Shown one piece after another: positions 3,577-35,774 of a stretch of 35,994 bases of DNA (its first letter is position 1; each line of letters begins with the position of its first letter). The DNA comes from Gammaproteobacteria bacterium (lineage in GTDB: Bacteria > Pseudomonadota > Gammaproteobacteria > JBOHHR01). The notes under the pieces are model-generated. The model saw only the letters and a list, made by a program, of their open reading frames with translations, ran no database searches and had not been told where the DNA came from. The stretch spans positions 1 to 35,994 of the forward strand of contig JBOIEG010001140.1 of assembly GCA_050740915.1 (NCBI GenBank). Reading direction: 5' to 3'. The translations under genes were made by a program, and so were the position numbers.

Positions 3577-3604
3577 GGGCCGCCCGAGCGCGACGCGCGC
3601 GCTG

Positions 3605-6593: not shown

Positions 6594-6654
6594 GGATCTG
6601 CCCTCCAAATCCCAGACCAAAGATTATATCCGCTAGAGCTCTGCGTGAACCGCC

Positions 6655-8480: not shown

Positions 8481-11400
8481 CCGGCGCAAACAGAGTGGAG
8501 GGCTGTCACCCCCGCCGATGAGCGTCTGCAGATTGGTAGGGCGTTGCGCAGGAGCTCGCCCTCGGAGCGGGCATCGGCGATACGCCGCTTAGTGATCCAC
8601 CAGATCGCGCAGCGACTTCGAATCGCGGAATCGGCTGTAGCACTCGGATTGACGATCCAGGCCACTGGCCTCGATTCGTTGCGGGTGCTGGAGCTCAAGC
8701 ACGACCTGGACGCCGAGCTGGGGATCGAGGCGCCGCTCGCCTGGTTTTTTTCCGATGCATCGATCGCAGAGACCGCCGCTCGGCTCGCGCAAGCGTTTAG
8801 CCTTAGGCCGGAAGCGGCTGATGCGCAGCGACCGGGCGCTGGCGTGCAACCGGGTGCGTTGTCGGCGACGCAAGGTTCGATGTGGGCCGTGCACCAGCTG
8901 GAGCCAGGGAGCGTCGCGTATAACCTGCATCTGGCCCTCAGGGTTCACGGAGCGGTGGACGCCGAAACGCTGCGGCAGGGTTTGGAGCACCTGTTGGACA
9001 GGCATGACATGCTACGCACCGTCTACCCCTGCGGTGGGGAAATCGTGACGCCGGCAGTGCTGGCGCGGCGTGAGTTGCCGCCGTATTTCGCGCTGGTGGA
9101 CGCCGCTACCTGGTCGTCGGCAGAACTGCAACGCGATATGAGTTCGCGGGCAAGCGAGCCTTTTGATTTGCAGCGCGGGCCGGTGGTACGCATGAGCTTG
9201 TATCGCCAAGGCGAACGCGTCCATACGCTGTTGTTGTGCGCCCATCACATCGCCGTAGACTTGTGGTCGGTATTGCTTTTCCTCGATGAGCTGCTCTCGG
9301 TCTACACGCTGCTGGGTGTCGATCGCAGCCCCGATCTGCCGCCCCCAACGGGGCATTATCGTGATTTCATTGGTTGCCAGCAGGCCTATCTCAAGTCCGC
9401 GGCTAGCGCCGCGGACTTGGCGTATTGGCGCAACCGGCTTGCAGGCGAGTTGCCGGTGCTGGCGCTACCTGCGGATTCACCTCGCTCAACAACACGCCGT
9501 TACCACGGAGGCTCTCACGCGCTTCAACTGCAACCCGGGCTGAGCTCCAAGCTCAAAGAGCTAGGCCGAAAGCAAGGCGCCACCCTGTTCATGACCTTGC
9601 TCGCGGCGTACAAGGTGCTGCTATACCGATATACCCATCAGACCGACATTATCGTTGGTGCGCCGAGCAGCGGACGCACGGATAGGCGCTATGCGCGGGT
9701 CGTCGGTAATTTTGTCAATCCGGTTGCGCTGAGGACCTATCCTTCCCCCGAGCTACCGTTCGCGACCTATCTCCAACACGTGCGAGAGGCGGTCCTGGGA
9801 GCGCTCGCCCATGAGCAATATCCGTTTTCGCTACTCGTTGAGCGCCTACAACCGAAGCGCCACGGTGATGAATGGCCCATCTATCAAACGATGTTTGTGT
9901 TGCAGCAAGCGCAATCAGGGATCGATCCAAACCTCTCGCAACTTGCCTTGGGTGAGGACGGAATAGCGTTCTCTCTAGGCGAGTGGCAGGTCCACTCCAT
10001 CGCGATCCCTGAACGGGTCGAGAACTTCGATCTCAAGCTCATGGCGGTGGAGTGTGAGCAAGGGTTGATCTTCTCCTTCCAGTATCGCCGCGAGTTGTTC
10101 CGACAAGAAACGATTGCCCAAATAGCCGCGCACTTTGATGTTCTCTTGCGGGGGATTATCGCTAACCCGAATGAACGCCTCGCCCAATTGCCGCTGCTGA
10201 CGGAGCCTGAGCGGTATCGACTGATTGTTGAGTGGAATGCTACTCAGACGGAGTATCCCAAGGATAAGTGCATTTATGAGTTGTTTGAGGCACAGGTCGA
10301 GCGCAGTCCTCAAGCCACGGCGGTGGTCTATGAAGACCAATCGCTCAGTTATCGTGAGCTCAATGCGAAGGCCAAACAGCTCGCGCATCACTTGCGTAGC
10401 TTGGGGGTGGGGCCCGACACGTTGGTGGCCATTTGTGTGGAGCGCTCCCTAGGGATGATCGTTGGTCTTTTGGGTATTCTCAAGGCGGGGGGTGCCTATG
10501 TGCCGCTTGACCCGACCTACCCCAAGGAGCGGTTGGCGTACATGCTGGAGGATGCTCGAGCTGCCGTTCTGCTCACCCAAGCGCGTCTACGAAACTCTTT
10601 GCCCGAACACCCGATGCTGCTCTGTCTAGACAGTGATTGGGTATCAATTGGGCGTCGAAGCAAGAAGAATCTTGCGAACCTTGCGTCACCGCTTAATCTT
10701 GCTTACGTCATCTACACCTCGGGCTCGACGGGAAGGCCGAAGGGGGTGGGGATTGCGCATGGCAGTTTAACGAACTTCCTGACAGGCATAACGCGCAAGC
10801 TTTCGCTATGCAGTGATGACATTGTACTGGCAGCGACGTCATCTTCTTTTGACATTTCCGTGCTTGAGCTTTTGGGTCCCGTAATCGTCGGCGGGCAGAC
10901 GCTGGTAGCGAGTCAGGAGGAAGCACAGGATCCCACCCGCCTTGGAGCCAGGATTGGTCAGTCGAGGGCGACAGTGATGCAGGCAACGCCTTCCGCGTGG
11001 CGTTGGCTATTGATGAGTGGTTGGCGAGCGGATAGTTCGCTGAGGATCCTTTGCGGGGGTGAACCATTGTTTGCTGATCTGGCTACGCAGTTGCTCAACG
11101 GCGTAACGGATTTCTGGAATCTATATGGTCCCACCGAAACGACGGTATGGTCGACGACGAAGGGGATCGCGTCCGCGCAGGACGCTCTTTTGATTGGCCG
11201 TCCGATTGCGAATACCGAGATTTATTTGTTAGATGAGTTTCTTGAGCCCGTACCGATAGGTGTATCGGGCGAGTTATACATTGCTGGTGCGGGTTTAGCG
11301 CGTGGGTATCTGAAGCGACCTGAGTTAACGGCGGAACGATTCATTCCCAGTCCATTTAGTGCAGAGCCGGGAGAGCGGTTGTACCGGACGGGGGACTTAG

Positions 11401-14400
11401 CGCGGTATCGGCCGGATGGAAACATTGAATACCTCGGGCGCATTGACCATCAGGTGAAGGTGCGAGGTTTTCGGATTGAGTTAGGGGAGATAGAGGCGCG
11501 GCTATTAGAGCACCCGCAGGTCAAGGAGGCGGTAGTGATTGCCCGCGAGGACACACCTGGGGAGAAGCGTCTTGTGGCCTATGTAGTGGGTAGCGGGGAC
11601 TGGCCAGAGAATGAGACTATCGAGCAGCTAAGGACGTATCTCGGAGAGGTCTTGCCGGACTACATGGTTCCGGCAGCATTCGTCTTCCTAGACTCACTAC
11701 CACTCACGCAGACGGGCAAACTAGATCGGAATGCATTACCGGTTCCCGATGTCACTGCCCAACTGGCTTGTCAATACCTTGCACCACGTACGCAGGTCGA
11801 AGCCGCGCTTACGCAGATCTGGGCGGACGTATTGCGGCTTGAACGGGTGGGCGTCCACGACAACTTCTTTACCCTCGGTGGTGATTCCGTGCGCAGCATC
11901 CAGATGGTCAGTCGTGCCCACGAGTCCGGCGTGCAGTTGACCCCGCGCCAAGTGTTCCAGCATCCCACCGTGGCCGAGCTCGCTCAAATCGCGGAAGCAG
12001 CTATCCCGGTGGAATCGCTTGCGATTGCACCCGTGCGTACCGTAACGAGCGATCGCACTTACTTGACGCCGGCGGATTTTCCCTTAGCGAGCCTGAGCCA
12101 ACAAGAGCTCGATGCGCTCCCGTTCGAGCCCCGCGATATCGAAGACATCTACCCGCTGGGGCCCATGCAGGAAGGCATGCTGTTCCATAGCCTCGCCCAG
12201 CCAGGGAGCGGTGTTTATGTCATGCAAGACCGCTATGCGTTAAGGGGAACGATTGATGTTCAAGCCTTTGGTGACGCTTGGCAAGCGGTAGTGGATCATC
12301 ATCCCATCCTGCGGACTTCGTTTTTTTGGCGCACCGAGCTACGGCCGCACCAGGTCGTAACGCGACGCGTTGAGCTCCCCTTCGAGTATCTCGACTGGCG
12401 CGGGTTAGAACCCGTGGAGCAAGAGGCGCGCATCGAAGCCGTGCTCGAGGCGGAGCGGCGGGCAGGTTTCGATCTTCACCGCGCGCCGCTGTTACGCCTG
12501 CGTCTGGTGCGGCTGACTGGCGATCGTTATCGCTGCATCCGCAGCTTCCACCATATCCTGCTCGACGAGTGGTGCACCTCGCCCCTGTTGCTCGACTTTC
12601 GAGCTGTTTATGGGGCCTTGGTTCGGCGCGAGCGGCCGCCTGTTCTAACTGCCCGCCCGTTTCGCGATTACATCGCGTGGCTGCAACGCCAGGACACGGA
12701 CGCGGCCGAGCGTTTCTGGCGTAATTATCTGCGCGGTTTCACCGAGCCGACCCCGCTCGCGGTGGACCGGTCAGACATCGCCTCTGGAGGCGAAGCCGGC
12801 ACGGTGGCGGACGCGATCGACGAGCTATCCGCCACCGATACGGCTGCGCTGCGCCGGCTCGCCAAGCGCGAACGGCTCACGCCCAATTCCTTTGTGCAGG
12901 CCGCTTGGGCACTGCTCTTAAGCCGCTATAGCGGGCGCGAAGAGGTGTTGTTCGGCGTGACCGTCGCGGGGCGGCCGGCGGTACTGCCGGGCAGGGAGTC
13001 TATGCTCGGACTGTTCGTCAATAGCCTGCCCTTGCGCGTTCGGTTTAAGCCCGAGCAAAGGCTGATCGGGTGGTTACGCGAGTTGCTTGTTGCTAGTGTC
13101 GAGGTCCGCGAATACGAATACGCTCCCCTGGGGCGGATCCAGTCCTGGTCTGAGGTTCCACGCGGGGAACCGTTGTTTAACCACCTCCTGGTGTTCGAGA
13201 ACATCCCGGTCGACCCGAGCCTGGGCGAGGCCAGCGACGGGTTGAGCATGGCGTATGGCGGAAGCCGTGTTCATACGAACTATCCCATCACCGCCACGGT
13301 GATCCCCGGATCGGGACTGACGTTTAAGCTCACCTATAGCCAGGATCGCTTCGAAGCCATTGCGATGCGCCGCATGCTGGGCCACTTCCGGCGCTTGCTG
13401 GAGGAGATGATCCGGCGGCCTGCGGCGCAGATCGGTGAGCTTGAGATGCTCGCAGAGGCGGAATGGCGCCAAACCGTCGACGGCTGGAATCGCACACGAC
13501 GGCACTATCCGCCGCCCGCGGATTTTGTGGCGATATTCGAAGAACAGGCGCGCCGGACGCCCGAGACCTGTGCAGTGGTTTGCGGCGGCGAAGCGTTAAC
13601 CTATCGGGCGCTCAATGCGCGCGCCAATCGTGTGGCGCTGGACCTCATCGACCGCGGGGTCGGGCCCGAGGTGATCGTTGCAGTGCTTGATGAGCGGGGT
13701 ATCGAGGTGCTGGTAGCCTTCCTCGCCATCCTCAAGGTAGGCGGAGTCTACTTGCCGCTAGACCCGCGCGATCCCGAGGCGCGTTGGCGGTTTGTGATCG
13801 AGACGGCGCAGCCGAGGTTGGTAGTGGCCGGCGCGGCGCGGGCGGATCGGGTTCGCCGCCTAGTATCACCGACCCGGTTAACACGAGTGGTGACTCTGGC
13901 GGATCTCGCCCGAGATCGATCCGATCAAAATTCGGCCCGATACACCGACCCTCGCTGTCTTGCCTACATTATCTTCACCTCGGGTTCGGCCGGCACGCCT
14001 AAGGGCGCGATGATCACCCGGCAAGGGATGTTTAACAACTTCATGACCAAAGTGCCGGCGCTCGGGCTGACGGCGAGTGATGTTGTCGCACAGACGGCGC
14101 CGCCGTGTTTCGACATCTCGGTGTGGCAGTTCCTGACGGCCTTGTTGTGCGGGGCGCGGGTCGCGATCCTCCCGGATGCGAGCGTGCAGGACCCGCAGGC
14201 GCTGCTCGGAGCCCTAAGCGCGCACGCTATCACGGTGATCGAGGTGGTCCCCTCGCTGATCCGTGCCTTGTTGGATCGCCCTCATCCAGACCACGAGCTA
14301 CCCGAGTTGCGCTGGTTACTCCCGACCGGCGAGGCCTGTCCTCCCGAGCTGTGCCGGCGCTGGCGCGAGCGATACCCCCACGTCGGCTTGCTCAATGCGT

Positions 14401-16760
14401 TTGGGCCGGCCGAGTGTGCCGACGATGTCGCTTACCACCGCATCACGAGTCAGGATGCGTCGCGTTCGAGGGTGCCGATCGGGCGGCCGGTGGACAACCT
14501 CCAGTTATACGTGCTCGACAACCGACTCGAGCCGATACCGATCGGCGTGCCCGGCGAGCTGTGCGTGGCCGGCGTTGGTGTCGGCCGTGGTTACCTCCGC
14601 CGCCCGGATGCGAGCGCCGAGCGCTTCGTGCCCAACCCCTTTGGCCCTCCCGGAAGCCGCTTGTATCGCAGCGGTGATATCGCCAGTTATCTCGCGGATG
14701 GCATTTTGGACTTCCTCGGGCGGGCGGATCATCAGGTGAAGATCCGCGGCCATCGCGTCGAGTTGGGCGAAGTGGAGGCCCAACTCGCGCGCCATCCTGC
14801 GATTGGAGCAATAGCGGTCACGATCCATGAACCCACGGCAGGGGATAGGCGCTTGGTGGCGTATTATGTGGCCCGTCACGAGGCAGAGCCACCCCGGGCG
14901 GAAGCGCTGCGGGCATATGCACGGTCGGCTTTGCCAGACTACATGATCCCTTCGGCCTTTCTGGCCGTAGAGGCGCTGCCGCTCAATCCAAACGGCAAGT
15001 TAGACCGCAAACGCCTGCCCGTGCCGACATACAGCAGCGAGCCAAAATCCGCCGCCACGGCGCGAACGCCCACCGAGGAGATCCTGAGCGGGATCTGGGC
15101 AAAGGTTTTGGGGATCCCGAGGGCAGGGGTCGATGAGAGCTTCTTTGCCCTCGGCGGCCACTCGCTGCTCGCCACGCAGATCGTCTCCCGCATCGCCACT
15201 GCCTTTGGGATCGAGTTGCCTTTGGCCGCGGTCTTCGATGCACCAACCGTCGCGCAGTTGGCTGCGCTTGTGGATGCCGCACTTGGGCATCGAGAGCGAG
15301 TTGCGGCACCGCCGCTCACGATTGCGGCGCGCGACCAACTGCTGCCGCTCTCCTATGCCCAGCGGCGGCTTTGGTTTATGAGCCAGGTTGAGCCGGGTAA
15401 TGCCTTTTATCACTTTCCTGCGGCGGTGCGCCTGGTAGGTAACCTGGATATCGAAGCAGTCGAGCGCGGCCTGCACGCCATCGTGCAGCGGCACGAAGTC
15501 TTGCGCACGATTTTCATCGAGCGCGACGGTGAACCGGAGCAGGCCGTTCTGGCGGATGCCGGCGTTACGCTCGCTTGCGAGGACTTGACAGGGCACGCCC
15601 CGGATCGACGCGAGCCCGAATTGCAACGGCGTATTCAGGCGGAGATAGCGCAGCCTTTTGATCTCGCGGCAGGACCCTTGGTGCGCATGCGGCTGTTCGT
15701 GCTCGAATGCGGTTCGGCCACGAAGACAACCGAACATGTCTTGCTCCTTATATTTCACCACATCGTGTTTGACGGCTGGTCGTTCGGTGTCTTGGCCCGT
15801 GAGCTCGGCGAGCTGTATTCGGCGGCCGTTGGCCAGCGCTGCGCCGAGTTGCCGTCATTGCCGTTCCAGTATGGCGACTATGCCCAGTGGCAACGCCGGT
15901 GGCTGCAGGGACAGGTACTAGACCGGGGACTCGCCTATTGGGTGGATCAGTTGCGAGATGCCCCCGGGTTTTTGGCCATAGCGGCCGGCCGGCATGGCGA
16001 TTCCGCCGCGCAGCCGCCCGGCGCGGAGCACGAGCTCGCCATCGAGCAGGGCTTTAGCGAAGCCTTGCGCGAGCTATCCCGCAAGCAGGGGGTCACGCTT
16101 TTCATGACCCTGCTCGCGGCCTTTGACGTCTTACTGTGTTACGCCAGCGGGCAAGAGGATCTGGTGGTAGGCACCGATGTCGCCAATCGCAACCGCACCG
16201 AAACCGAAGGGCTGATTGGATTTTTCATCAATCTGTTGGCGTTGCGTGTGCGCCTCGCCGGGGACCCGCCGTTCAACGAGCTGTTGGCGCGCGTGCGCGA
16301 CACCACGCTGGCTGCGTACGCCCATCAAGACGTTCCTTTTGACAAGGTGGTGGAGGCGATCAAACCCATACGCCGCATCGATGTTGCGCCGATCTTTCAG
16401 GTGAAGCTGGTGGTGCACAACGTACCGCTTGCCGAAGTCCGCTTGCCAGGCGTTGAGCTGCAGGCGGTGCCGATCCGGCGGCAGGTCGCCGAGCTCGATC
16501 TGGTGCTGCACGTATATGAGGAGGAAGCCTTGAGGTGTGTGTTTGAATACCGTAGCGATCGGTTTGATGCGCGCGCGGTGCGGCTTTTTGCCGAGCAGTA
16601 TCAACACATCGTTTGGCGCGCAGCGGGTTCACCCGACGTCCCGGTTAGCGTGTTCGTTGAAGAGCTTACGGCGCTGGAACAGCGTAACGCCGCAGTTGAG
16701 ACTGGACGCGTCAACAGCCTTCGAACGATCCGGCGTAAGGGCATTCGGGTTTCGCCCTGA
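6744..16760 (+). CDS. NRPS1 (3338 aa): FAAL-T-C-A(Gly)-T-C-A(Dab-like)-T-C
   Basis: Uninterrupted 10,017-nt ORF with ordered NRPS core motifs (see domain features). Confidence 0.95.
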   Translation: MPEALHFVSDLVSLLRLRAAQQGERTAYVFLADGESESVRLSYAALDQEVRALAGQIQRVAANGARALLLYPPGLEYIKAFFACLYAGVVAVPAHPPARRHPQRLAPIVRDAAPVLVLTTTDLEARLCAHTAGNGELEQLYCLATDASPSAAPADLTPRPIGQDHLAFLQYTSGSTGDPKGVMVTHGNLLANERAIQQRFGHTQDSIVVGWLPLYHDMGLIGNVLQPVYCGATAILMPPMAFLDSPIRWLRAIARYRAHTSGGPDFAYALCARKITEEQKRGLDLSTWRVAFNGAEPVRASTLERFTEAFSECGFRRTAFFPCYGLAEATLFVTGPSNGESVSVGRFDRTGLSEQRKAAPCSEATASVDLVSCGQSADEHRLSVVNPITLTPCSEGQVGEIWVAGPSVGEGYWNRPTASERTFRARLSNGSPEAFLRTGDLGFLDRAHLYITGRHKDLIILCGRNYHAEDLERALDESAQGIRPRSSVAFSVPGEDEELLVVVAEADRPYLRQHGPAHIFASIRRALAEACDAPGAEIVLVRRGAVLKTSSGKIRRRACRQAYLDGALPALARTAPPESPAQTEWRAVTPADERLQIGRALRRSSPSERASAIRRLVIHQIAQRLRIAESAVALGLTIQATGLDSLRVLELKHDLDAELGIEAPLAWFFSDASIAETAARLAQAFSLRPEAADAQRPGAGVQPGALSATQGSMWAVHQLEPGSVAYNLHLALRVHGAVDAETLRQGLEHLLDRHDMLRTVYPCGGEIVTPAVLARRELPPYFALVDAATWSSAELQRDMSSRASEPFDLQRGPVVRMSLYRQGERVHTLLLCAHHIAVDLWSVLLFLDELLSVYTLLGVDRSPDLPPPTGHYRDFIGCQQAYLKSAASAADLAYWRNRLAGELPVLALPADSPRSTTRRYHGGSHALQLQPGLSSKLKELGRKQGATLFMTLLAAYKVLLYRYTHQTDIIVGAPSSGRTDRRYARVVGNFVNPVALRTYPSPELPFATYLQHVREAVLGALAHEQYPFSLLVERLQPKRHGDEWPIYQTMFVLQQAQSGIDPNLSQLALGEDGIAFSLGEWQVHSIAIPERVENFDLKLMAVECEQGLIFSFQYRRELFRQETIAQIAAHFDVLLRGIIANPNERLAQLPLLTEPERYRLIVEWNATQTEYPKDKCIYELFEAQVERSPQATAVVYEDQSLSYRELNAKAKQLAHHLRSLGVGPDTLVAICVERSLGMIVGLLGILKAGGAYVPLDPTYPKERLAYMLEDARAAVLLTQARLRNSLPEHPMLLCLDSDWVSIGRRSKKNLANLASPLNLAYVIYTSGSTGRPKGVGIAHGSLTNFLTGITRKLSLCSDDIVLAATSSSFDISVLELLGPVIVGGQTLVASQEEAQDPTRLGARIGQSRATVMQATPSAWRWLLMSGWRADSSLRILCGGEPLFADLATQLLNGVTDFWNLYGPTETTVWSTTKGIASAQDALLIGRPIANTEIYLLDEFLEPVPIGVSGELYIAGAGLARGYLKRPELTAERFIPSPFSAEPGERLYRTGDLARYRPDGNIEYLGRIDHQVKVRGFRIELGEIEARLLEHPQVKEAVVIAREDTPGEKRLVAYVVGSGDWPENETIEQLRTYLGEVLPDYMVPAAFVFLDSLPLTQTGKLDRNALPVPDVTAQLACQYLAPRTQVEAALTQIWADVLRLERVGVHDNFFTLGGDSVRSIQMVSRAHESGVQLTPRQVFQHPTVAELAQIAEAAIPVESLAIAPVRTVTSDRTYLTPADFPLASLSQQELDALPFEPRDIEDIYPLGPMQEGMLFHSLAQPGSGVYVMQDRYALRGTIDVQAFGDAWQAVVDHHPILRTSFFWRTELRPHQVVTRRVELPFEYLDWRGLEPVEQEARIEAVLEAERRAGFDLHRAPLLRLRLVRLTGDRYRCIRSFHHILLDEWCTSPLLLDFRAVYGALVRRERPPVLTARPFRDYIAWLQRQDTDAAERFWRNYLRGFTEPTPLAVDRSDIASGGEAGTVADAIDELSATDTAALRRLAKRERLTPNSFVQAAWALLLSRYSGREEVLFGVTVAGRPAVLPGRESMLGLFVNSLPLRVRFKPEQRLIGWLRELLVASVEVREYEYAPLGRIQSWSEVPRGEPLFNHLLVFENIPVDPSLGEASDGLSMAYGGSRVHTNYPITATVIPGSGLTFKLTYSQDRFEAIAMRRMLGHFRRLLEEMIRRPAAQIGELEMLAEAEWRQTVDGWNRTRRHYPPPADFVAIFEEQARRTPETCAVVCGGEALTYRALNARANRVALDLIDRGVGPEVIVAVLDERGIEVLVAFLAILKVGGVYLPLDPRDPEARWRFVIETAQPRLVVAGAARADRVRRLVSPTRLTRVVTLADLARDRSDQNSARYTDPRCLAYIIFTSGSAGTPKGAMITRQGMFNNFMTKVPALGLTASDVVAQTAPPCFDISVWQFLTALLCGARVAILPDASVQDPQALLGALSAHAITVIEVVPSLIRALLDRPHPDHELPELRWLLPTGEACPPELCRRWRERYPHVGLLNAFGPAECADDVAYHRITSQDASRSRVPIGRPVDNLQLYVLDNRLEPIPIGVPGELCVAGVGVGRGYLRRPDASAERFVPNPFGPPGSRLYRSGDIASYLADGILDFLGRADHQVKIRGHRVELGEVEAQLARHPAIGAIAVTIHEPTAGDRRLVAYYVARHEAEPPRAEALRAYARSALPDYMIPSAFLAVEALPLNPNGKLDRKRLPVPTYSSEPKSAATARTPTEEILSGIWAKVLGIPRAGVDESFFALGGHSLLATQIVSRIATAFGIELPLAAVFDAPTVAQLAALVDAALGHRERVAAPPLTIAARDQLLPLSYAQRRLWFMSQVEPGNAFYHFPAAVRLVGNLDIEAVERGLHAIVQRHEVLRTIFIERDGEPEQAVLADAGVTLACEDLTGHAPDRREPELQRRIQAEIAQPFDLAAGPLVRMRLFVLECGSATKTTEHVLLLIFHHIVFDGWSFGVLARELGELYSAAVGQRCAELPSLPFQYGDYAQWQRRWLQGQVLDRGLAYWVDQLRDAPGFLAIAAGRHGDSAAQPPGAEHELAIEQGFSEALRELSRKQGVTLFMTLLAAFDVLLCYASGQEDLVVGTDVANRNRTETEGLIGFFINLLALRVRLAGDPPFNELLARVRDTTLAAYAHQDVPFDKVVEAIKPIRRIDVAPIFQVKLVVHNVPLAEVRLPGVELQAVPIRRQVAELDLVLHVYEEEALRCVFEYRSDRFDARAVRLFAEQYQHIVWRAAGSPDVPVSVFVEELTALEQRNAAVETGRVNSLRTIRRKGIRVSP
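8560..8800 (+). other. NRPS1 domain: carrier protein (ACP/T0)
   Basis: ATGLDSLRVLELKHDL; Ser codon 8676-8678. Confidence 0.8.
8850..10180 (+). other. NRPS1 domain: condensation C1 (lipo-initiation position)
   Basis: LSATQGSMWAVHQL. The His motif reads HHIAVDLWS (9243-9269), with Leu in place of the usual Gly. Confidence 0.8.
10220..11740 (+). other. NRPS1 domain: adenylation A1, code DILQLGLVWK (Gly-like)
   Basis: YTSGSTGRPKG (10713-10745), FDISVLE, NLYGPTETTVW, GELYIAGAGLARGY, YRTGDLARY, GKLDR (Lys codon 11718-11720). The 10-residue code was extracted by alignment to GrsA positions. It is one conservative change from the Gly code DILQLGLIWK as I recall it. Confidence 0.75.
11790..12000 (+). 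other. NRPS1 domain: T1
   Basis: FFTLGGDSVRSIQ; Ser codon 11886-11888. Confidence 0.85.
12120..13430 (+). other. NRPS1 domain: condensation C2
   Basis: IEDIYPLGPMQEGMLFH. The His motif reads HHILLDEWC (12549-12575), with Glu in place of Gly. Confidence 0.8.
13480..15020 (+). other. NRPS1 domain: adenylation A2, code DIWELTADDK (Dab-like)
   Basis: FTSGSAGTPKG (13974-14006), FDISVWQ, NAFGPAECADDV, GKLDR (Lys codon 14997-14999). The code equals what I recall for the Dab-activating domain of PvdL; this is unverified. Confidence 0.6.
15070..15280 (+). other. NRPS1 domain: T2
   Basis: FFALGGHSLLATQ; Ser codon 15162-15164. Confidence 0.85.
15330..16650 (+). other. NRPS1 domain: terminal condensation C3 (LCL-like)
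   Basis: LPLSYAQRRLWFMSQ; HHIVFDGWS (15756-15782). No A or T domain follows before the stop. Confidence 0.8.
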
Positions 16761-16772
16761 TCCGAACCTAGC

Positions 16773-17825
16773 ATGAAGCAGCCCGATAAACCCGATGCTG
16801 TTCCGCGATTAAGCGCCGTGCGGCGGCGCGCTTTGTCTGCCGCCAGCGGGTTGGTGCGATTCGGCGGCAGCTTTCCGCTGCGCATCGAGCCGACAGCACA
16901 AGGTGTTGACCTGGCTTCTTGGGCAACAGGCACACATGCCATGATCGAAAAGAAACTGGCCGAGCATGGCGCTCTTCTGTTTCGTCATTTCGATATCGAA
17001 GGCATCCAAGCCTTTGAGCGCTTCGTGAGGGCGGTGGCGGGCGGCGCGCTAGAATACCGGTTCCGGGCCTCGCCCCGCACCGAGGTAGGACACCATATAT
17101 ACACCGCGACCGACTATCCGGCCGACCAGAGCATCTTCCCTCACAACGAGCACGCCTATTCCCCGGTCTGTCCGCTGCGCCTGTTTTTTTATTGCCAGCA
17201 GCCGGCGGCTATAGGCGGGGAGACACCCATCGGTAGCGGGCGCGCGATCACACAAGCTATCGACGTCGGCGTGTGCGCCCGTTTCAAGCGCAAGCAGGTG
17301 CTGTACGTCCGTAACTACGGCGATGGATTCGGTCTGCCGTGGCAAACCGTATTTCAGACTTCGGATAAAGCGCAAGTCGAGCGCTACTGCAAGGAGGTTG
17401 GGATAGCGATCGAATGGAAGTCAGGCGATCGCCTTTGCACGCGTCAAGTGGGTCCGGCCCTAGTCCGGCACCCGCGCTTGGGCGAGCGGATCTGGTTCAA
17501 CCATGCTACTTTTTTTCATGTCACGACCTTACCGTCCCCGGTGCGCGAGGCGTTGCTCAGCGAGTTTGACGAGGCAGATCTTCCGCAGAACACCTATTAC
17601 GGCGACGGCTCGGCGATAGAAACCGAGACGCTTGAGTACCTGCGCGCGGTTTATCGAGCGGCGATGGTGAGCTTTGCTTGGCAGCCCGGCGATATCCTTC
17701 TGGTAGACAACATTTTGACCGTGCATGGACGCCGGCCGTTTAGCGGCGCACGCCGGGTGCTGGTCGCGATGGCGGACACGTTTTGTCCCCGAGATCTTGC
17801 GGTTCAGGCGGAGAAATTGGCGTGA
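16773..17825 (+). CDS. SyrP/TauD-family Fe(II)/2-oxoglutarate-dependent hydroxylase (NRPS-associated amino-acyl beta-hydroxylase type)
   Basis: GALLFRHF, FPHNEHAY (His 17142-17144, Glu 17148-17150), GGETP, ILLVDNILTVHGRRPF (His 17724-17726). It is in the same frame as NRPS1, 4 sense codons after the NRPS1 TGA. No obvious SD precedes it. Confidence 0.9.
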   Translation: MKQPDKPDAVPRLSAVRRRALSAASGLVRFGGSFPLRIEPTAQGVDLASWATGTHAMIEKKLAEHGALLFRHFDIEGIQAFERFVRAVAGGALEYRFRASPRTEVGHHIYTATDYPADQSIFPHNEHAYSPVCPLRLFFYCQQPAAIGGETPIGSGRAITQAIDVGVCARFKRKQVLYVRNYGDGFGLPWQTVFQTSDKAQVERYCKEVGIAIEWKSGDRLCTRQVGPALVRHPRLGERIWFNHATFFHVTTLPSPVREALLSEFDEADLPQNTYYGDGSAIETETLEYLRAVYRAAMVSFAWQPGDILLVDNILTVHGRRPFSGARRVLVAMADTFCPRDLAVQAEKLA

Positions 17826-20800
17826 CCCCAGCCGAGCACATCGAAGGCTACCGCCTTTCTATTCAACAGCAGCGCCTGCACCGCCTGCAGGACGCCAGTC
17901 CGTCGACGCCCTACCGGGTGCAGGGACTGATCGAAATTGAAGGGCCGCTGGATAGGGAGCGCCTGCGTGGCGCCTTAGCCCGAGTTGCCGAGCGCCACGA
18001 GATCCTGCGTACCCGCTTCCAAAGGCTGCCCGCCATGGTTCTGCCGGTGCAGGTGGTTCATCAGTTGCCGTGCGCCATTGCCAGCGAGGTGGACATCTCG
18101 TGTTTGACCGTAAGCGAGCAGACGGCACGCAAAGCGATCGTGTGGCGAGAATGCGGTGCGCAATCGATCGCCTGGACCAGGCAACTCGCTTTACACACCG
18201 TATTATTGCACCTAGGGCCTGCGCATCATGCACTTTTTGTGACCTTAACCGCACTGTGCGCAGATCCCGCCACGCTCACGCATCTGGTAACGGAGCTAGC
18301 CCGTGGCTATGGCGCTGGGCAAGGGGTTGGCGATAGCGATGTCGTACAGTATGCGGACTACGCCGAGTGGCAGCACCAGGTGCTGTCCTCGGGCGATGCC
18401 GGCGGCGCGGGCTTTTGGCGTGCCCAAGCTCATGCGGATCTAATTGAGGTTAGGCTCCCCTTCGAAAACGGCGACGTTGCCCCAAGACCGTTTCTCCCTA
18501 GCGTCGAGCAAACGTCGCTCCCTTTGTCGCTCGGCAGCGCGATCCATTCTTTTGCCCGCGCGCACGGAACCGCGGTAGAAGTGTGCCTGCTGGGTTGCTG
18601 GCTGGCGTTGCTTAGGCGTCACCGCGGCCAGGGCCCGCAGATCGTTGGGGTACTAAGCGATGGACGCAGCGAAGCGACACGGGGAGCTTTGGGTCCGTAC
18701 AGCAAGGTCCTTCCCATTCGTTTTGGCATGGACTTAAACGCGTCGTTCAAGCCCTGGCTCAGTCATCTGGCGAAATTAGTGGCCAGCGCCAAACGATGGC
18801 AGGATGGGTTCGCTTGGCAGCCTGACTCCGCCTGCTGCGCCGCGAGCTTCGCTTATGTTCCGGCACTTAAACCGGCATATGCCGGACCGGTTTGTTTCAC
18901 TCTCGCTCGCCAGCACGGCTTGATAGACCGCTTCAAACTGCAGCTCGCCATCGCGGAACAGGGTCATGCTTTAAGCGTTCAACTTCACTACGATCAGGCC
19001 TGCTTCTCGAGCGCGGCAATCGCGTGCCTGCTTAGTCAGTTTGAAACGCTGGTCGCGGGCGCGCTAAAGTGGCCTGATACCCCCCTACGAGACCTTGAGC
19101 TCGCTGGCGCGATCGAACGCAAGCGGCTGCTCACGGCGTTCAATCAGACCGAGGCCGCTGCAGCGCCTTGCCGCTTGCTGCATCAGTTGTTCGAGGCTCA
19201 GGCACAGCGAACGCCGGCGGCCATCGCCCTCATCGCTGGCGAGATGAGCCTAAGTTATGCGACCTTGGATGCCAAGGCTAACCGTTTGGCACACTATCTG
19301 CGCTCTCGTGGGATCGGCCCCGACGACCGGATCGGGATCTGTTTTGGGCGCTCCCCGGACGCGCTCGTGGCGATGTTGGGGGTGCTCAAGGCCGGGGCCG
19401 CCTATGTGCCGCTGGACCCGGACTACCCAACTGCGCGTCTCGCTTATATGCTCAAGGACACCGGCATAGCGCTGGTGCTGACGCATGCGGCGCACGCCGA
19501 CTTTCTGCGATCGCAGAATAGCGCGCACGTGTGCCTGGATCGCGAAGAGGCGCTGTTGAGATCGTTTAGCGGCCAGTCCTCCGGCGTCGCCTGCGACCCA
19601 GAGAACTTGGCGTATGTCATCTATACCTCGGGATCGACGGGCCTGCCCAAAGGGGTGGCGGTCACTCATTGCAACGTCTTGCACTCGACCACGGCGCGGC
19701 TGCAATACTATCGTGAGCCGGTCCGATGTTTTATGTTGCTGTCCTCGTTTTCCTTCGACAGCTCGGTAGCCGGCATATACTGGACATTAAGCCAAGGTGG
19801 CAGCCTGTGCCTGGCGCCCGAAGAGGCGCTACAAGAGCCGGCGGCGCTCGCGGATCTGATCGAAGAACACCGGGTTTCGCATGTGCTGGGGTTGCCCTCC
19901 TTTTATCACGCCTTCTTGGAAACTGTGGCCCCCGGCAGGCTGCGCTCCGTGAAAACGGTGATCGTGGCGGGGGAAGCCTGTAGCAAGGCAGTGGTAGCGC
20001 GGCATTGGGCGATGCTGCCCGATGTGCCTTTGTTTAACGAGTACGGGCCCACCGAATGCGCGGTCTGGTCTAGCGTCTATCCTTGCGTCCAGGCCTCGTG
20101 CGGGTCCGTTGCCATCGGCAGGCCGATCTGTGGCTGGGCGATGTATGTGCTGGATGAACGCTTAGAGCCGGCGCCCACCGGCATTGCAGGCGAAATCTGC
20201 ATAGGCGGCGCAGGCCTCGGCCGCGGCTATCTGCGCCAGCCTGCTTTCACCGCCCAGCGGTTTATTCCCAACCCATTCGGCGGTCCCGGAACGCGCCTTT
20301 ATCGGACCGGCGACCTAGGCTGCTATAGCCCCGGCGGGCACATCGAGTTTCTAGGCCGGGCGGATCAACAGGTCAAGCTCCGCGGCTACCGGGTAGAGCT
20401 GGCGGAGATCGAAGCCGCGTTGTGCCGCTTGGCAGGTGTAACAGAGGCGGCGGTGGTCGCACGCGATGGGAGTCTTCTCGCCTATGTGGCGCGTAGCAAT
20501 GAGGCCGTCGCATCGGCCGATGGGCTTAGAGATGGCTTGCGCGAGCGCCTGCCGGACTACATGGTCCCCGCTCGCTTTGTATTCCTAGAACGCTTGCCCC
20601 ATACGCCGAATGGCAAGCTCGACCGCAACGCCCTGCCGGTGCCGGAGGAGATAGCGCCTGCATCCACGCGGTACGTCCCGCCTCGCACTCCCGTCGAGGA
20701 GGCGTTGGCGCGTCTATGGGCCGAGCTGCTCAGGCTCGAAAGGGTCGGTATCCATGACAACTTCTTCGAGCTGGGTGGGGACTCGATCCTCAGCATCCAG

Positions 20801-23800
20801 ATCGTCGGCCGCGCGCGCCAGGCAGGGCTGCGATTCACCGCTAGACAGATGGTTGAGCACCAGAGCATCGCGGCGCTCGCGGGTGTCGTGCAGAGCACGG
20901 CGCAGAAAACCGAAGCCGCATCCAGCGATCCGGGTGAGGTGCCGTTGACCCCGATACAGCGTTGGTTCTTCGAGCAAGACCTACCCAGGCCGGAGCGCTG
21001 GACCCACGCTTTGCTGCTGCGCCTTACCCAACCGATCGACGGCGCCGCCCTTACCCAAGCCGTGGACCACGTGATCCGCCATCATGACGCCCTGCGTCTG
21101 CGGTTCATCAAGACCGGCGGTAAATGGCGTCAATGGTCACGGGCCTCCGAGGGGTGCAAGCGCTACGACAACGCGTGTGAACACGTCGATCTGACAGCCG
21201 CCGACGACAAGCAGTTGGCGATGGCCTTACAGCACGCAGCCCAGAAACAGATGGATATTCGGATAGCGAGCGGGCCGCTGTTCAAGCTCGTGTGGTTCGA
21301 TGCCGGGAGAACAAGGCCGGACCATCTCCTGGTCGTCACACATCACCTGGTCGCGGACGGACTGTCCTGGCGTATCCTCCTGGAGGATTTACACAGCGCC
21401 TACCGGCAGCTCACAGCAGGACAGGCGCCAATGCTCCCGCCGCAGACCACCTCTTTTCATCACTGGGCGCGGGGGCTGCAAGCGTATGCAAGGAGCGAAG
21501 CGGTCAAGGCGGAGGCCACCTACTGGCTGGATGCGCAGCGGTTCCGGATCGATCCCTTGCCAGTGGACCATCCAGAAGGCGACAACACCGAGGCCGCTAA
21601 CGCGGTGCTGCGGGTGATGCTAGCCGAAGAGGACACACAAGCGCTGCTGCAAGACGTCCCGCCAGTGTACCAGACGCGGATCGACGATGTCTTGCTCTGT
21701 GCGCTGGCCTTGACCCTGTGTCGTTGGAGCAGCGCGGGGGCCGTGCTGGTCGATCTGGATCGCCACGGCCGCGAGATAGCGATCGATGGCATGGATGTCT
21801 CACGCACGGTTGGCTGGTTCACCAGCGTATTTCCCATGCCCTTGTCTGTGAGCTTGGATGCTGGCTTGGGCGCTAACCTGAAATCGCTCAAGGAGCAGCT
21901 TCGGAGCGTTCCGCACCACGGCTCGCACTACGGCTTGTTGCGCTACGGCATGGGAGAAATAGCGCGGCGCCTTAGCGAACTGCCGGCAGCCCGGGTCATC
22001 TTCAACTACCTGGGTCAATTGGACCAAACCTTTGCCCAGACGCCGCTTTTTGCATTTTCCGAAGAGCGCGTGCTGAGCGGCCAGGATCCGGCCTGGGCGC
22101 GGTCCTACGAGTTGGCTATCGGCGTCGACGTTTATAAAGGCAGGCTACGGGTGGAATGGGATTACAGCGCCGCGCGCTATAGGCGCGAGACTATCGCCGC
22201 ACTCGCAGACGGTTATCTCGCCGCCTTGCGGCAGTTGATCGGACACTGCCTGAGCGCCGAGGTAGGGGGATATACGCCGTCTGATTTTCCGCTCGCAGGG
22301 CTTTCTCAAGACGAGCTGGACGCGCTTTTCTCCGCTCAGCCGGGCATAGAAGATGTTTATCCCGCGACCCCGGTCCAAGCGGGCATGCTGTTCCACAGCC
22401 GCTTCGCTGCGCAGGGCGGAGTCTACCTGCAACAGGTGAGCTGCAACCTGGAGGGGCCATTCGATCGAGGCGCCTTTATTCAGGCCTGGCAAGTAGTGCT
22501 GGATAAATACACGGTTCTGCGGAGCGCTTTTGTCGAAGATGGGCAACAACGCCAGCTACAGGTCGTACATCGTCGCGCCGGCCTCCCTATGCTTGAGCAC
22601 GATTGGCGAGAGATGGCGCCCGAAGCCCAAGTCGAGCGATGGGAGGCCCTCCTAACCGAGGATCGCGCGCAGGGTTTTACGGTTGCCGAGGCGCCTTTGA
22701 TGCGCTTGACCTTAGTGCGCTGTGACCAGAGCCGTCATCGCCTGCTGTGGAGCCACCACCATGCCTTACTCGATGGCTGGTGCCCTGGCATTATTTTCAA
22801 TGACGTGATCCAGACCTATGAAGGCTTGTGCTCAGGGACCCGTCCTACACTGGGCCCGAGCCGTGCCTATCGCGACTATGTCAACTGGTTGCTCAAGCAA
22901 GATCGCGAGATCGCCGATGCTTATTGGCGCAGGACGCTGGCGGGCTTTGATTCTCCCACGCCGCTAGGCATAGCGCGCACGCCCGATGTCCCAGGCCGAG
23001 GGCACGGTGAGCAGCGCATGGCGCTCACAGCCAAGCTCACCGAGGAGCTGACCTCATTTGCCAGGCATCATCGGCTTACCCTCAACACCCTGGTGCAAGG
23101 GGCATGGGCAATATTGCTCGGCCGCTATGGCGGAGCGCGCGATGTCGTTTTCGGGATCACCGTCTCCGGGAGACCGGCCGATCTGGCCGGGACAGAGTCC
23201 ATGGTAGGGCTTTTTATCAATACGTTGCCCTTGCGGATCAGGATTTCTCCGCAAACGCCAGTCCTCGAATGGTTACAAGCGCTCATGCGACAGAATGCAG
23301 AGTTACGCGAATTCGAGTACAGCGCGCCGGTAGACGTGCACGCCTGTAGCGATGTGCCGCGCGCTCAGCCGCTGTTCGAAAGCATCGTCGTTTTCGAGAA
23401 TTATCCGGTAGAAAGAGCGCTGCTCGAGGCGCGTTCGGCACTCGGCGTCAAGGATGTCAGATTCAACGAACAGACGCATTACCCGCTGACCTTGGTGGCG
23501 GTGCCCGGCAAGGCGCTGGAATTACGCATCGCCTATGAGCGGGGCCGTTTTGATGAACCTACCATGGAGCGGCTCTCGGGGAACCTCCAGACACTGTTAA
23601 CGGCGATGATCGGCGATCCCGGCGTGAGGCTGGGTGCGTTGTCGATCGTGACGGACACGGAACAAAGGCGGTTCTCCCGCTTGCGGATCGAGGCAGTGAG
23701 CGTTCCCTCGGCAGGCGAGACGCTCACGCAGCGTTTCGAGGCAAGCGTCTCGCGTAGGCCCGATGCCGTTGCCCTCGTGTGCGAAGGGCAATCGCTGACC

Positions 23801-25555: not shown

Positions 25556-35774
<10,219 letters not shown>

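What the first reader, a model, noticed from the sequence alone, without database searches (positions are those of the whole stretch)
16650..19110. Split module: terminal C domain, in-frame hydroxylase behind a single TGA, then a catalytically dead interface-like C domain
Seen: NRPS1 ends with a complete C domain. Its TGA (16758-16760) is followed by four sense codons (S-E-P-S) and the hydroxylase ATG in the same frame, with no recognisable SD. The hydroxylase stop overlaps a GTG start of NRPS2 (GTGA). NRPS2 opens with a full-size condensation fold in which HHxxxDG is replaced by TALCADP. Established, as I recall it (Reitz et al. 2019, PNAS): some siderophore beta-hydroxylases are fused to the C-terminus of an NRPS, and a non-catalytic C-family interface domain precedes the A domain of the residue that is hydroxylated (Asp or His). 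Inference: this locus is the same device with the hydroxylase separated from NRPS1 by one stop codon. That could reflect recent fission, a nonsense or sequencing error, or read-through giving both forms. The target would be the His-like residue of NRPS2 module 1, which is then epimerised.
Basis: partly seen in the sequence, partly recalled or inferred. Interest (0 to 1): 0.75.

Follow-up and report, generated by a model that had tools for sequence, protein, structure and literature searches.

The report
Stand-alone histidine hydroxylase in split NRPS module
This is an ordinary, already described arrangement for making beta-hydroxyhistidine in a peptide siderophore: a free-standing hydroxylase gene sits between a synthetase that ends in a condensation domain and one that opens with a non-catalytic "interface" domain.

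Summary
NRPS1 ends in a catalytic C domain (HHIVFDG). TGA 16758-16760 is followed by four sense codons and an in-frame ATG that opens a 350-aa TauD-family dioxygenase. Its stop overlaps the GTG start of NRPS2 (GTGA). NRPS2 opens with a full-length C-like domain in which HHxxxDG is replaced by TALCADP.

The functional reading holds. That domain belongs to the interface-domain family. The next A domain carries the published His / beta-OH-His code DSALIAEVWK, and an E domain follows.

The proposed novelty does not hold. All 120 nearest hydroxylase homologues and all 80 nearest genome loci, including the Pseudomonas corrugata siderophore locus, have the hydroxylase as a separate gene between a terminal C domain and an I-A-T synthetase. 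The reading frame relative to the upstream stop varies among them; only 7 other loci are in frame. Two independent assemblies carry the same TGA. No RNA structure or recoding element lies there.

C-terminal fused forms dominate the wider family, and one fused His-type example exists (L088). Fusion and fission have therefore happened, but not recently in this lineage. Verdict: a new member of a known kind, of low interest.

The parts
6744..16760 (+). NRPS1 (3338 aa): acyl-AMP ligase, T, C, A, T, C, A, T, C
   Evidence: ORF list. Motif parse. Pfam on the N-terminal part. Collinear at 46.7% identity with the Methylocystis bryophila plasmid NRPS.
15336..16757 (+). Terminal catalytic C domain of NRPS1, with HHIVFDG at 15756-15776
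   Evidence: It scores 531 bits against an HMM built from the terminal C domains of 58 related loci.
16758..16760 (+). TGA stop codon of NRPS1
   Evidence: The same stop is present in the independent assemblies L085 (97% identity) and L087 (100% identity).
16761..16772 (+). 12-nt intergenic spacer TCCGAACCTAGC, in frame, with no Shine-Dalgarno sequence
   Evidence: L085 differs at 2 of these 12 positions, both non-synonymous if read as codons. No RNA structure.
16773..17825 (+). Stand-alone Fe(II)/2-oxoglutarate beta-hydroxylase (350 aa), His type; H124-x-E126, H318 and R327 are conserved
   Evidence: Pfam TauD, E = 1.5e-42. Conserved residues. 56% identity to the P. corrugata 348-aa TauD, including its N-terminus. 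Clade placement.
17822..17825 (+). GTGA overlap: hydroxylase stop and NRPS2 start, consistent with translational coupling
   Evidence: L085 has the identical overlap. RefSeq annotates the same 4-nt overlap in L083.
17822..19171 (+). Interface (I) domain: full-length C-like fold with TALCADP (18248-18268) in place of HHxxxDG
   Evidence: Pfam Condensation, E = 2e-40. PDB alignments over residues 12-444. Motif alignment with 80 loci. 430 bits against the I-domain HMM versus 137 bits against the catalytic C HMM.
19250..20626 (+). A domain of NRPS2 module 1 (motifs A1 to A10), specificity code DSALIAEVWK (His)
   Evidence: PMC12283262 gives this code as a His signature that tolerates the beta-OH modification.
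20700..20910 (+). T (carrier) domain of module 1, with GGDS at 20774-20788; boundaries approximate
   Evidence: Motif parse.
20940..22260 (+). E domain (HHLVADGLSW, FNYLG; DRHGRE in place of EGHGRE); boundaries approximate
17822..25555 (+). NRPS2 (2577 aa): I, A(His), T, E, C, A, T
25545..35774 (+). NRPS3 (3409 aa): C, A, T, E, C, A, T, C, T, TE
5117..5338 (+). MbtH-like accessory protein gene
   Evidence: tblastn with the L083 MbtH protein, 72% identity.
5835..6620 (-). 4'-phosphopantetheinyl transferase gene
   Evidence: Pfam ACPS, E = 2.2e-17.

Best explanation
The region is the beta-hydroxyhistidine module of a lipopeptide siderophore-type NRPS operon, in its usual gene arrangement. The proposed steps are below.

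1. NRPS1 builds an acyl-dipeptide and ends in a catalytic C domain.
2. The partner A-T pair for that C domain lies on the next synthetase, NRPS2, behind a non-catalytic C-like interface domain. The module is therefore split across two proteins.
3. Between the two synthetase genes sits a separate gene for an Fe(II)/2-oxoglutarate dioxygenase of the interface-associated, His-specific clade.
4. The A domain loads His onto the T domain of NRPS2 module 1.
5. The free hydroxylase, held by the interface domain, hydroxylates the carrier-bound His at C-beta.
6. The terminal C domain of NRPS1 joins the acyl-dipeptide to it.
7. The E domain then epimerises the residue.

The three genes are co-transcribed. 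The hydroxylase is translated by re-initiation 12 nt after the NRPS1 stop, and NRPS2 through the GTGA overlap. The in-frame position of the TGA has no function.

Shown here: the domain identities, clade membership, A-domain code, conserved synteny and reality of the stop codon. Inferred: the docking role of the interface domain (a proposal of Reitz et al. 2019, recalled from memory because the paper is not in the library), the timing of hydroxylation, and translational coupling.
For: - The 120 best hydroxylase homologues are all proteins of 322-371 aa.
- In the 80 nearest genome loci the in-frame stop lies at most 244 codons upstream of the hydroxylase match, so none is fused to a C domain.
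- 75 of those related loci have an upstream NRPS gene, and 73 of these show an intact HHxxxD[GA] C domain at its end. Frames relative to that gene's stop are 7 in frame, 26 at +1 and 42 at +2.
- The P. corrugata genome has the same order: AMP-ligase-T-C | TauD 348 aa | C-like-A-T.
- All 80 downstream N-terminal domains lack HHxxxDG. The consensus is PALCADxxTL; the window has TALCADPATL.
- The window's domain scores 430 bits on an I-domain HMM built without it, against 137 bits on a catalytic C HMM. The window's own catalytic C domains behave the opposite way.
- The A-domain code is DSALIAEVWK in the window and in 75 of 78 partner A domains. This is a published His / beta-OH-His code.
- In the NJ tree the window sits in a clade of 84. 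It contains 81 stand-alone, His-partnered enzymes, one other stand-alone representative and one fused protein.
- The catalytic residues H124, E126, H318 and R327 are conserved in at least 98% of 121 sequences. Homologue N-termini align to window residues 1-4 in 108 of 121 sequences in that alignment.
- The TGA and the GTGA overlap are reproduced in L085 and L087.
- No promoter-like site lies at the junctions.
Against: - No biochemical evidence is available here that interface domains actually bind the hydroxylase.
- The E domain has DRHGRE instead of EGHGRE, so epimerisation is not certain.
- The hydroxylase start has no visible Shine-Dalgarno sequence, so translation efficiency is unknown.
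- Low-level UGA read-through cannot be excluded from sequence alone.
- The tree is a simple neighbour-joining tree without support values.
Confidence: 0.88

Rival explanations
1. Recent fission: the lineage of this window recently had a fused C-hydroxylase, and a nonsense mutation (TGA) split it. The in-frame, stop-free 12-nt spacer would be the scar.
For: - The spacer is in frame and only four codons long.
- A fused C-hydroxylase, P0124 (843 aa), aligns collinearly across the stop in one HSP at 38.6% identity.
- P0124 belongs to the same His-type clade and has a DSALIAEVW partner A domain.
- Among the 150 nearest 50%-identity cluster representatives, 116 hydroxylase domains sit at the C-terminus of a longer protein.
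Against: - The six nearest relatives in the tree (Methylocapsa, Methylotetracoccus, Methylocystis) and the next 12 are all stand-alone.
- Of those six, the three whose upstream NRPS gene lies within the fetched locus (L003, L004, L005) are out of frame with it. The M. bryophila plasmid locus L083 has a 26-nt gap and is also out of frame.
- The hydroxylase has its own ATG at the position where homologue N-termini start.
- NRPS1 ends within a few residues of where its M. bryophila homologue ends.
- The chance expectation for an in-frame, stop-free spacer is about 0.28.
Confidence: 0.04
2. Programmed or leaky UGA read-through (or selenocysteine insertion) yields both free hydroxylase and an NRPS1-hydroxylase fusion.
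For: The hydroxylase is in frame, with four sense codons after the TGA, and the arrangement is kept in the 97%-identical relative L085. Natural fused forms show that a fusion would be functional.
Against: - No stable RNA structure lies downstream of the TGA (z = +0.87; 160 of 200 shuffles fold at least as well).
- No Rfam match for SECIS or any recoding element.
- The frame is not conserved beyond the immediate lineage.
- The two spacer differences in L085 are both non-synonymous (E to K, S to R), as expected for non-coding DNA. This rests on only two changes.
- From general knowledge, a U after UGA is not the leakiest context in bacteria.
Confidence: 0.03
3. The TGA is a sequencing or assembly error in a truly fused gene.
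For: The window does contain one visibly broken gene, the diaminobutyrate aminotransferase at 4433-5079, so its assembly or gene integrity is not perfect.
Against: Two independent Logan assemblies from different runs carry the same TGA, spacer length and ATG. SRR27067739 is 100% identical over 1696 nt. SRR24042718 is 97% identical, with substitutions on both sides of the stop.
Confidence: 0.01
4. The N-terminal NRPS2 domain is not a hydroxylase platform. It could be a structural docking partner for the terminal C domain of NRPS1, or a degenerate relic, with the hydroxylase recognising the T domain directly.
For: The docking role is only a published proposal. The domain sits exactly at the protein-protein junction of a split module. 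Sequence analysis cannot tell which partner it binds.
Against: - This domain type strictly co-occurs with this hydroxylase clade in 80 of 80 loci.
- It also follows a fused C-hydroxylase in Leptolyngbya (526 bits on the same HMM).
- Ordinary split modules in this same window (NRPS2 to NRPS3) have no such domain.
- The second, 325-aa TauD of P. corrugata lacks the N-terminal roughly 60 aa shared by the window's clade.
Confidence: 0.08

Closest known systems
Interface-associated histidyl beta-hydroxylase system (the IBH_His clade of Reitz et al. 2019 and of antiSMASH), as in the Pseudomonas corrugata / P. mediterranea locus that I take, from memory, to be the corrugatin lipopeptide siderophore cluster
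   Same: - Same gene order: a terminal catalytic C domain, then a separate TauD gene of about 350 aa, then a synthetase starting with a C-like domain without HHxxxDG, followed by A and T.
- Hydroxylase 56% identical over 341 aa.
- Same A-domain code, DSALIAEVWK.
   Different: - The window's interface domain belongs to the PALCAD-motif subgroup shared with methanotrophs, cyanobacteria and some other Pseudomonas loci. It is not of the corrugatin-type SSHFDLASL subgroup.
- The His module is module 3, not module 1, and carries an E domain.
- The hydroxylase happens to be in frame with the upstream stop.
- The product and organism are unknown.
Methylocystis bryophila plasmid pDSM21852-1 NRPS cluster (NZ_AP027150.1, uncharacterised)
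   Same: Same synteny: diaminobutyrate aminotransferase, MbtH, NRPS, TauD, NRPS. The hydroxylase is 62% identical and NRPS1 is 46.7% identical and collinear. The TauD/NRPS 4-nt overlap is the same. RefSeq annotates the genes as separate.
   Different: The NRPS-TauD gap is 26 nt and out of frame. The aminotransferase is intact there but broken in the window.
Fused aspartyl beta-hydroxylase type (IBH_Asp): cupriachelin and potashchelin PtcB (FAAL-ACP-C-TauD followed by C-A(Asp)-PCP)
   Same: Same logic: a split module, a hydroxylase placed after the terminal C domain, and an interface-type C-like domain before the A domain of the residue to be hydroxylated (PMC7100376; Leptolyngbya example). The interface domains of both types score on the same HMM.
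   Different: In that type the hydroxylase is covalently fused and the partner A domain is Asp (DLTKIGHIGK in Leptolyngbya). Here it is a separate gene and the partner is His.
Fused C-hydroxylase with a His partner: P0124, 843 aa, GCA_000422425.1 contig AULT01000039.1 (locus L088)
   Same: It lies in the same hydroxylase clade in the NJ tree and is collinear with the window's terminal C domain plus hydroxylase. It is followed, with a 4-nt overlap, by I-A-T with code DSALIAEVW.
   Different: It has no stop between C and hydroxylase, and the C-hydroxylase is a free-standing didomain protein. It is the only fused member among about 84 in the clade.
X domain of glycopeptide antibiotic NRPSs (non-catalytic C-like domain that recruits P450 oxygenases; PDB 4tx2)
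   Same: A degenerate C-superfamily domain used as a landing pad for a trans-acting oxygenase that modifies a carrier-bound substrate. 4tx2 is among the sequence hits of the window's domain. The functional comparison is from general knowledge.
   Different: It recruits a different oxygenase class (P450), sits in a different place (last module, before TE), and belongs to a different sequence subfamily. This is an analogy, not membership.

Membership tests
Interface-associated His beta-hydroxylase (IBH_His type) | TauD/TfdA-fold Fe(II)/2-oxoglutarate dioxygenase with an intact HxD/E...H triad and 2-oxoglutarate-binding Arg | tested here: met
   Pfam TauD, E = 1.5e-42. H124, E126, H318 and R327 are conserved in at least 98% of 121 sequences.
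Interface-associated His beta-hydroxylase (IBH_His type) | Groups phylogenetically with hydroxylases of known beta-OH-His siderophore clusters, not with Asp types | tested here: met
   In the NJ tree the window lies in an 84-member clade with the P. corrugata and P. mediterranea enzymes and 81 His-partnered enzymes. Identity is 56% to the corrugata 348-aa enzyme and 46% to the second, 325-aa TauD. The tree has no bootstrap support, and the published reference set and antiSMASH pHMM were not available.
Interface-associated His beta-hydroxylase (IBH_His type) | Partner A domain activates His | tested here: met
   The code is DSALIAEVWK, listed as a His / beta-OH-His signature in PMC12283262. This is an in-silico prediction only.
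Interface-associated His beta-hydroxylase (IBH_His type) | The product contains beta-hydroxyhistidine | not testable with these tools
   Needs isolation of the compound or in vitro assays.
Interface (I) domain of the condensation superfamily | Full-length C-superfamily domain | tested here: met
   Pfam Condensation, E = 2e-40. Aligns over residues 12-444 to Txo1 and other solved C domains.
Interface (I) domain of the condensation superfamily | Catalytic HHxxxDG motif absent | tested here: met
   TALCADP aligns to the motif column. All 80 related domains also lack both His residues or keep at most one.
Interface (I) domain of the condensation superfamily | Sits directly before the A domain of the hydroxylated residue and next to the hydroxylase gene or domain | tested here: met
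   Window layout. The same layout occurs in 80 of 80 loci.
Interface (I) domain of the condensation superfamily | Forms a sequence family distinct from catalytic C domains | tested here: met
   430 bits on the I-domain HMM (window excluded from the model) against 137 bits on the catalytic C HMM. The window's catalytic C and E domains score 48-214 against 76-531.
Interface (I) domain of the condensation superfamily | Physically positions the hydroxylase against the carrier-bound amino acid | not testable with these tools
   This is a proposal in the literature.
Fused Asp beta-hydroxylase (IBH_Asp type) | Hydroxylase covalently fused to the C-terminus of an NRPS | tested here: not met
   A real TGA plus a 12-nt spacer separates them, confirmed in two other assemblies.
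Fused Asp beta-hydroxylase (IBH_Asp type) | Partner A domain activates Asp | tested here: not met
   The window has DSALIAEVWK, against DLTKIGHIGK for the fused type in Leptolyngbya.
Stand-alone T-domain-associated Asp hydroxylase (TBH_Asp / SyrP-like) | Stand-alone enzyme whose partner NRPS module lacks an interface domain | tested here: not met
   The partner module begins with an interface domain. The window's enzyme shares the N-terminal roughly 60 aa with the interface-associated clade, which the 325-aa P. corrugata TauD lacks.
Programmed stop-codon read-through / selenocysteine recoding | Conserved in-frame arrangement plus a downstream stimulatory RNA element | tested here: not met
   The frame is not conserved. 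The RNA fold z-score is +0.87. No Rfam hit.

The most novel reading that the evidence does not exclude
In this lineage the in-frame UGA with a stop-free four-codon spacer is read through at a low level. The cell would then make both free hydroxylase and a small amount of NRPS1-hydroxylase fusion, tethering the enzyme to the assembly line as in naturally fused relatives. The locus would be a living intermediate between the separate and fused architectures. The evidence does not exclude this, but nothing positively supports it.
Probability: 0.03. Interest if true: 0.45.

Novelty: new member of a known kind. Interest (0 to 1): 0.15.

Why it matters
The practical value is in annotation. The locus can be filed with confidence as a beta-hydroxyhistidine module of an uncharacterised lipopeptide metallophore cluster. 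Its closest relatives are in methanotrophic Alpha- and Gammaproteobacteria. The stop codon should not be "repaired" or flagged as a pseudogene.

The survey also shows how labile the link between the terminal C domain and the hydroxylase is. Most of the wider family is fused, the His clade is almost entirely unfused, and one fused His-type exception exists. This fits the idea that the hydroxylase works as a non-covalent or covalent part of the same split module. None of this changes current understanding of the system.

Tried and rejected
- **Reitz et al. 2019 (PNAS, PMC6778253):** not held in the library. Its definitions are quoted from memory and from papers that cite it.
- **Megablast of 16000-20000 against plasmids:** no match.
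- **Apparent hydroxylase-NRPS fusion in Massilia frigida (L069):** an artefact of my script. An ambiguous base in the stop codon was not recognised, and the translation shows a stop.
- **Metagenome scan with P0124:** found nothing. Its genomic context was obtained instead by exact-protein look-up.
- **Position 278 of the A-domain code:** it came out as G, S or L depending on the alignment. I settled it with the usual anchor, three residues before the conserved Pro of the (L/V)P(S/T) motif, calibrated on GrsA. This gives L.
- **Hydroxylases with C-terminal extensions (P0167, P0173, P0200, P0263):** these carry a T domain, not an interface domain, so they are not evidence for hydroxylase-interface fusion.
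- **Structure prediction of the interface domain:** considered and not run. Sequence evidence for the fold was already sufficient, and a single-chain model would not test docking.

Full report
**1. The observation**

- The long ORF 6744-16760 (3338 aa) ends in a C domain with an intact HHIVFDG motif at 15756-15776.
- Its stop is TGA 16758-16760. The next twelve bases, TCC GAA CCT AGC, contain no stop and lead in the same frame to ATG 16773.
- The ORF 16773-17825 encodes a 350-aa protein matching Pfam TauD over its whole length (E = 1.5e-42).
- Its TGA (17823-17825) overlaps GTG 17822, which is in the frame of the next synthetase, 17822-25555.
- The first 450 residues of that synthetase match Pfam Condensation (E = 2e-40). 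They align from residue 12 to 444 with solved C domains such as Txo1, and among other hits with the teicopeptide X domain 4tx2.
- In a multiple alignment with catalytic C domains, TALCADP (18248-18268) falls on the HHxxxDG column.

**2. Domain layout of the window**

A motif parse plus Pfam on fragments gives the following:

- NRPS1: acyl-AMP ligase, T, C, A, T, C, A, T, C.
- NRPS2: I, A, T, E, C, A, T.
- NRPS3: C, A, T, E, C, A, T, C, T, TE.

Upstream lie a broken diaminobutyrate aminotransferase gene, an MbtH gene and, on the other strand, a phosphopantetheinyl transferase gene. No sigma-70-like promoter is found at the two junctions, so I infer that the three genes are co-transcribed.

**3. 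Is the stop codon real?**

The exact hydroxylase protein is also encoded on a Logan assembly of run SRR27067739 (L087). It is 100% identical to the window over 1696 nt, including the junction. A 97%-identical relative from run SRR24042718 (L085) has substitutions on both sides of the junction. It still has the same TGA, a 12-nt spacer (TCCAAACCTAGA), the ATG and the same GTGA overlap. A sequencing or assembly error is therefore excluded for practical purposes. The two spacer differences would both be amino-acid changes if the spacer were translated. This fits non-coding DNA, though two changes are too few to carry weight.

**4. Is a separate hydroxylase unusual among its relatives?**

It is not.

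- The 120 best database homologues (54-97% identity) are all 322-371 aa long.
- A scan of one genome per species returned 80 loci (52-63% identity). They come from Pseudomonas, methanotrophs (Methylocapsa, Methylocystis, Methylotetracoccus), many Nostocales and other cyanobacteria, and single Chloroflexia, Acidobacteriota and Nitrospirales genomes.
- In every one of them an in-frame stop lies at most 244 codons upstream of the hydroxylase match. That is too short for a fused C domain.
- Of the related loci, 75 have an NRPS gene ending just upstream, and 73 of these show an intact HHxxxD[GA] motif in its last 480 residues.
- The frame of the hydroxylase relative to that upstream stop is 0 in 7 of them, +1 in 26 and +2 in 42. 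Many Pseudomonas loci are near-duplicates. Even counting distinct spacer configurations, in-frame cases are a minority.
- Among the six closest relatives in the tree, the three whose upstream NRPS gene is within the fetched locus (L003, L004, L005) are out of frame.
- The closest annotated relative, on a Methylocystis bryophila plasmid, has the order aminotransferase, MbtH, NRPS, TauD, NRPS. It has a 26-nt out-of-frame gap and the same 4-nt TauD/NRPS overlap, and RefSeq annotates the genes as separate. Its NRPS is collinear with NRPS1 to within a few residues of both C-termini.
- Homologue N-termini align to residues 1-4 of the window's protein in 108 of the 121 aligned sequences, so the ATG at 16773 is the family's normal start.
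- The Pseudomonas corrugata genome shows the same order: ligase-T-C (1135 aa), TauD (348 aa, 17 nt downstream, out of frame), then C-like-A-T (1020 aa). I identify this locus as the corrugatin cluster from memory of the compound and its producer.

**5. The N-terminal domain of NRPS2**

- In all 80 loci the synthetase downstream of the hydroxylase opens with a C-like domain that lacks HHxxxDG.
- Most share the motif (L/F)xxLPALCADxxTL. The window's FVTLTALCADPATL fits it.
- The corrugatin-type Pseudomonas loci form a second subgroup with SSHFDLASL.
- An HMM built from the 48 PALCAD-type domains, with the window left out, scores the window's domain at 430 bits. An HMM of terminal catalytic C domains gives it 137 bits.
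- The interface domains next to an Asp-type fused hydroxylase in Leptolyngbya boryana also score above 520 bits on the same model.

The domain is a member of the interface-domain family and not an ordinary catalytic C domain.

**6. The substrate**

- The specificity code of the A domain behind the interface domain is D-S-A-x-I-A-E-V-W-K in the window and in all 78 loci where it could be read.
- Position 278 shifted between alignments. With the usual anchor it is Leu in the window and in 75 of 78 partners, giving DSALIAEVWK.
- A 2025 survey of A-domain signatures lists this code among His-activating domains and notes that it accepts the beta-OH modification (PMC12283262).
- The carrier domain is followed by an E domain (HHLVADGLSW, FNYLG). 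Its EGHGRE motif reads DRHGRE.
- The next C domain carries the same HHHALLDGW motif as the C domain after the canonical E domain of NRPS3. This supports a D-configured donor.

**7. Where fused forms fit**

- In a library of 50%-identity cluster representatives, 116 of the 154 hydroxylase domains found in the 150 nearest proteins (plus two reference proteins) sit at the C-terminus of a longer protein. Of the 100 proteins with more than 400 residues upstream of the hydroxylase, 80 have an HHxxxD[GAES] motif within the preceding 560 residues.
- In neighbour-joining trees the window lies in an all-stand-alone subclade of 19. That subclade sits inside an 84-member clade holding all 81 His-partnered enzymes, one further stand-alone representative and a single fused protein, P0124. 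Fused forms dominate outside this clade.
- P0124 (843 aa) aligns in one HSP with the conceptual read-through product of the window.
- In its genome (L088), P0124 is followed, with a 4-nt overlap, by an I-A-T synthetase with a DSALIAEVW code. A truly fused His-type version therefore exists, but it is the exception.
- One Leptolyngbya boryana plasmid cluster carries both forms. A separate TauD precedes I-A(DATKVGEVGK), and a fused C-TauD precedes I-A(DLTKIGHIGK).
- The potashchelin paper documents the fused Asp arrangement FAAL-ACP-C-TauD / C-A(Asp)-PCP (PMC7100376).

Fusion and fission of the terminal C domain and the hydroxylase have thus happened repeatedly. For the window's lineage, however, the separate state is old and shared.

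**8. Read-through**

- The 91 nt around the stop fold no better than shuffled sequence (z = +0.87).
- Rfam finds nothing relevant.
- The frame is not conserved.
- The prior chance of an in-frame, stop-free 12-nt spacer is about 0.28.

I cannot exclude trace read-through of a UGA, but there is no positive evidence for it.

**9. Mechanism**

The best-supported picture has five steps:

1. The A domain loads His on the T domain of NRPS2 module 1.
2. The free dioxygenase, whose catalytic residues H124, E126, H318 and R327 are conserved, hydroxylates C-beta of the tethered His while held by the interface domain.
3. The terminal C domain of NRPS1 condenses the acyl-dipeptide onto it.
4. The E domain epimerises it.
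5. The chain continues on NRPS2 and NRPS3.

The domain identities, substrate code and synteny are shown. The docking role and the order of events are inferred from the published proposal. They also draw on the strict co-occurrence seen here: 80 of 80 loci have the interface domain, while the ordinary split junction between NRPS2 and NRPS3 has none. Translation of the hydroxylase without a Shine-Dalgarno sequence, 12 nt after a stop, and of NRPS2 from a GTGA overlap, is most simply explained by termination-reinitiation coupling. That too is inferred.

**10. Verdict**

The feature that made the finding look special, an in-frame hydroxylase behind a single TGA, is a coincidence within a well-populated, already described architecture. 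The locus is a new, uncharacterised member of the interface-dependent beta-hydroxyhistidine systems.

Noticed in passing
window 4433-5079: The diaminobutyrate-2-oxoglutarate aminotransferase gene is broken. Residues 10-153 of the Methylocystis homologue match frame 2 (4433-4864) and residues 351-447 match frame 1 (4789-5079). The middle roughly 200 aa are missing. This is either a deletion pseudogene or a mis-assembly. One A domain of NRPS1 (code DIWVLTADDK) looks Dab-like from memory, so the precursor supply may be affected.
   Followed up: partly
window 33222-35774: NRPS3 ends with C-T-TE and no A domain (Pfam Condensation 36-469, PP-binding 506-568, Thioesterase 590-831 of the fragment). 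The last carrier domain must be loaded in trans or by a neighbouring A domain.
   Followed up: no
window about 21700-21760 (NRPS2 E domain): The E domain after the His module has DRHGRE where the E domain of NRPS3 has the canonical EGHGRE. The first Glu is replaced by Asp, so the epimerase activity is not certain.
   Followed up: partly
L088 5535-11242 (GCA_000422425.1, AULT01000039.1): A free-standing didomain protein, C-hydroxylase (843 aa), falls inside the His-type clade. It is followed by I-A-T with a DSALIAEVW code and preceded by a second, 329-aa TauD. It is the only fused His-type example seen.
   Followed up: partly
L086 10303-29788 (Leptolyngbya boryana plasmid pLBX): One cluster holds both architectures. 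A separate TauD precedes I-A(DATKVGEVGK, Asn/Asp-like), and a fused C-TauD precedes I-A(DLTKIGHIGK, Asp). A separate hydroxylase 54% identical to the window's can therefore have a non-His partner.
   Followed up: partly
L011, L021-L026, L029, L043, L047, L072 and others: The triad of hydroxylase, interface domain and DSALIAEVWK A domain occurs in many Nostocales and other cyanobacteria, and in single Chloroflexia, Acidobacteriota and Nitrospirales genomes. A 2022 preprint (10.1101/2022.12.14.519525) stated that beta-OH-His pathways were limited to select Proteobacteria. The predicted range looks wider.
   Followed up: no
L001 11159-12500 and about 30 other Pseudomonas loci: The corrugatin-type interface domains form a separate subgroup (motif SSHFDLASL, one His retained). 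They score about 800 bits on their own HMM but only about 250 on the PALCAD-type HMM. The window's domain is only about 25% identical to them.
   Followed up: partly
P0121, P0122 (representative library): Proteins of 673-680 aa consist of two tandem hydroxylase domains of this family.
   Followed up: no
P0167, P0173, P0200, P0263 (representative library): Members of this hydroxylase family carry a C-terminal carrier (T) domain (DNFFxLGGxS). This is a different way of tethering enzyme and substrate.
   Followed up: no
window 2102-2833 and 3524-4132: Upstream ORFs match an outer-membrane Phenol_MetA_deg-type family (E = 2.5e-06) and a GNAT acetyltransferase (E = 2.4e-07). Their relation to the cluster is unknown. 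No TonB-dependent receptor or exporter gene lies within the window.
   Followed up: no
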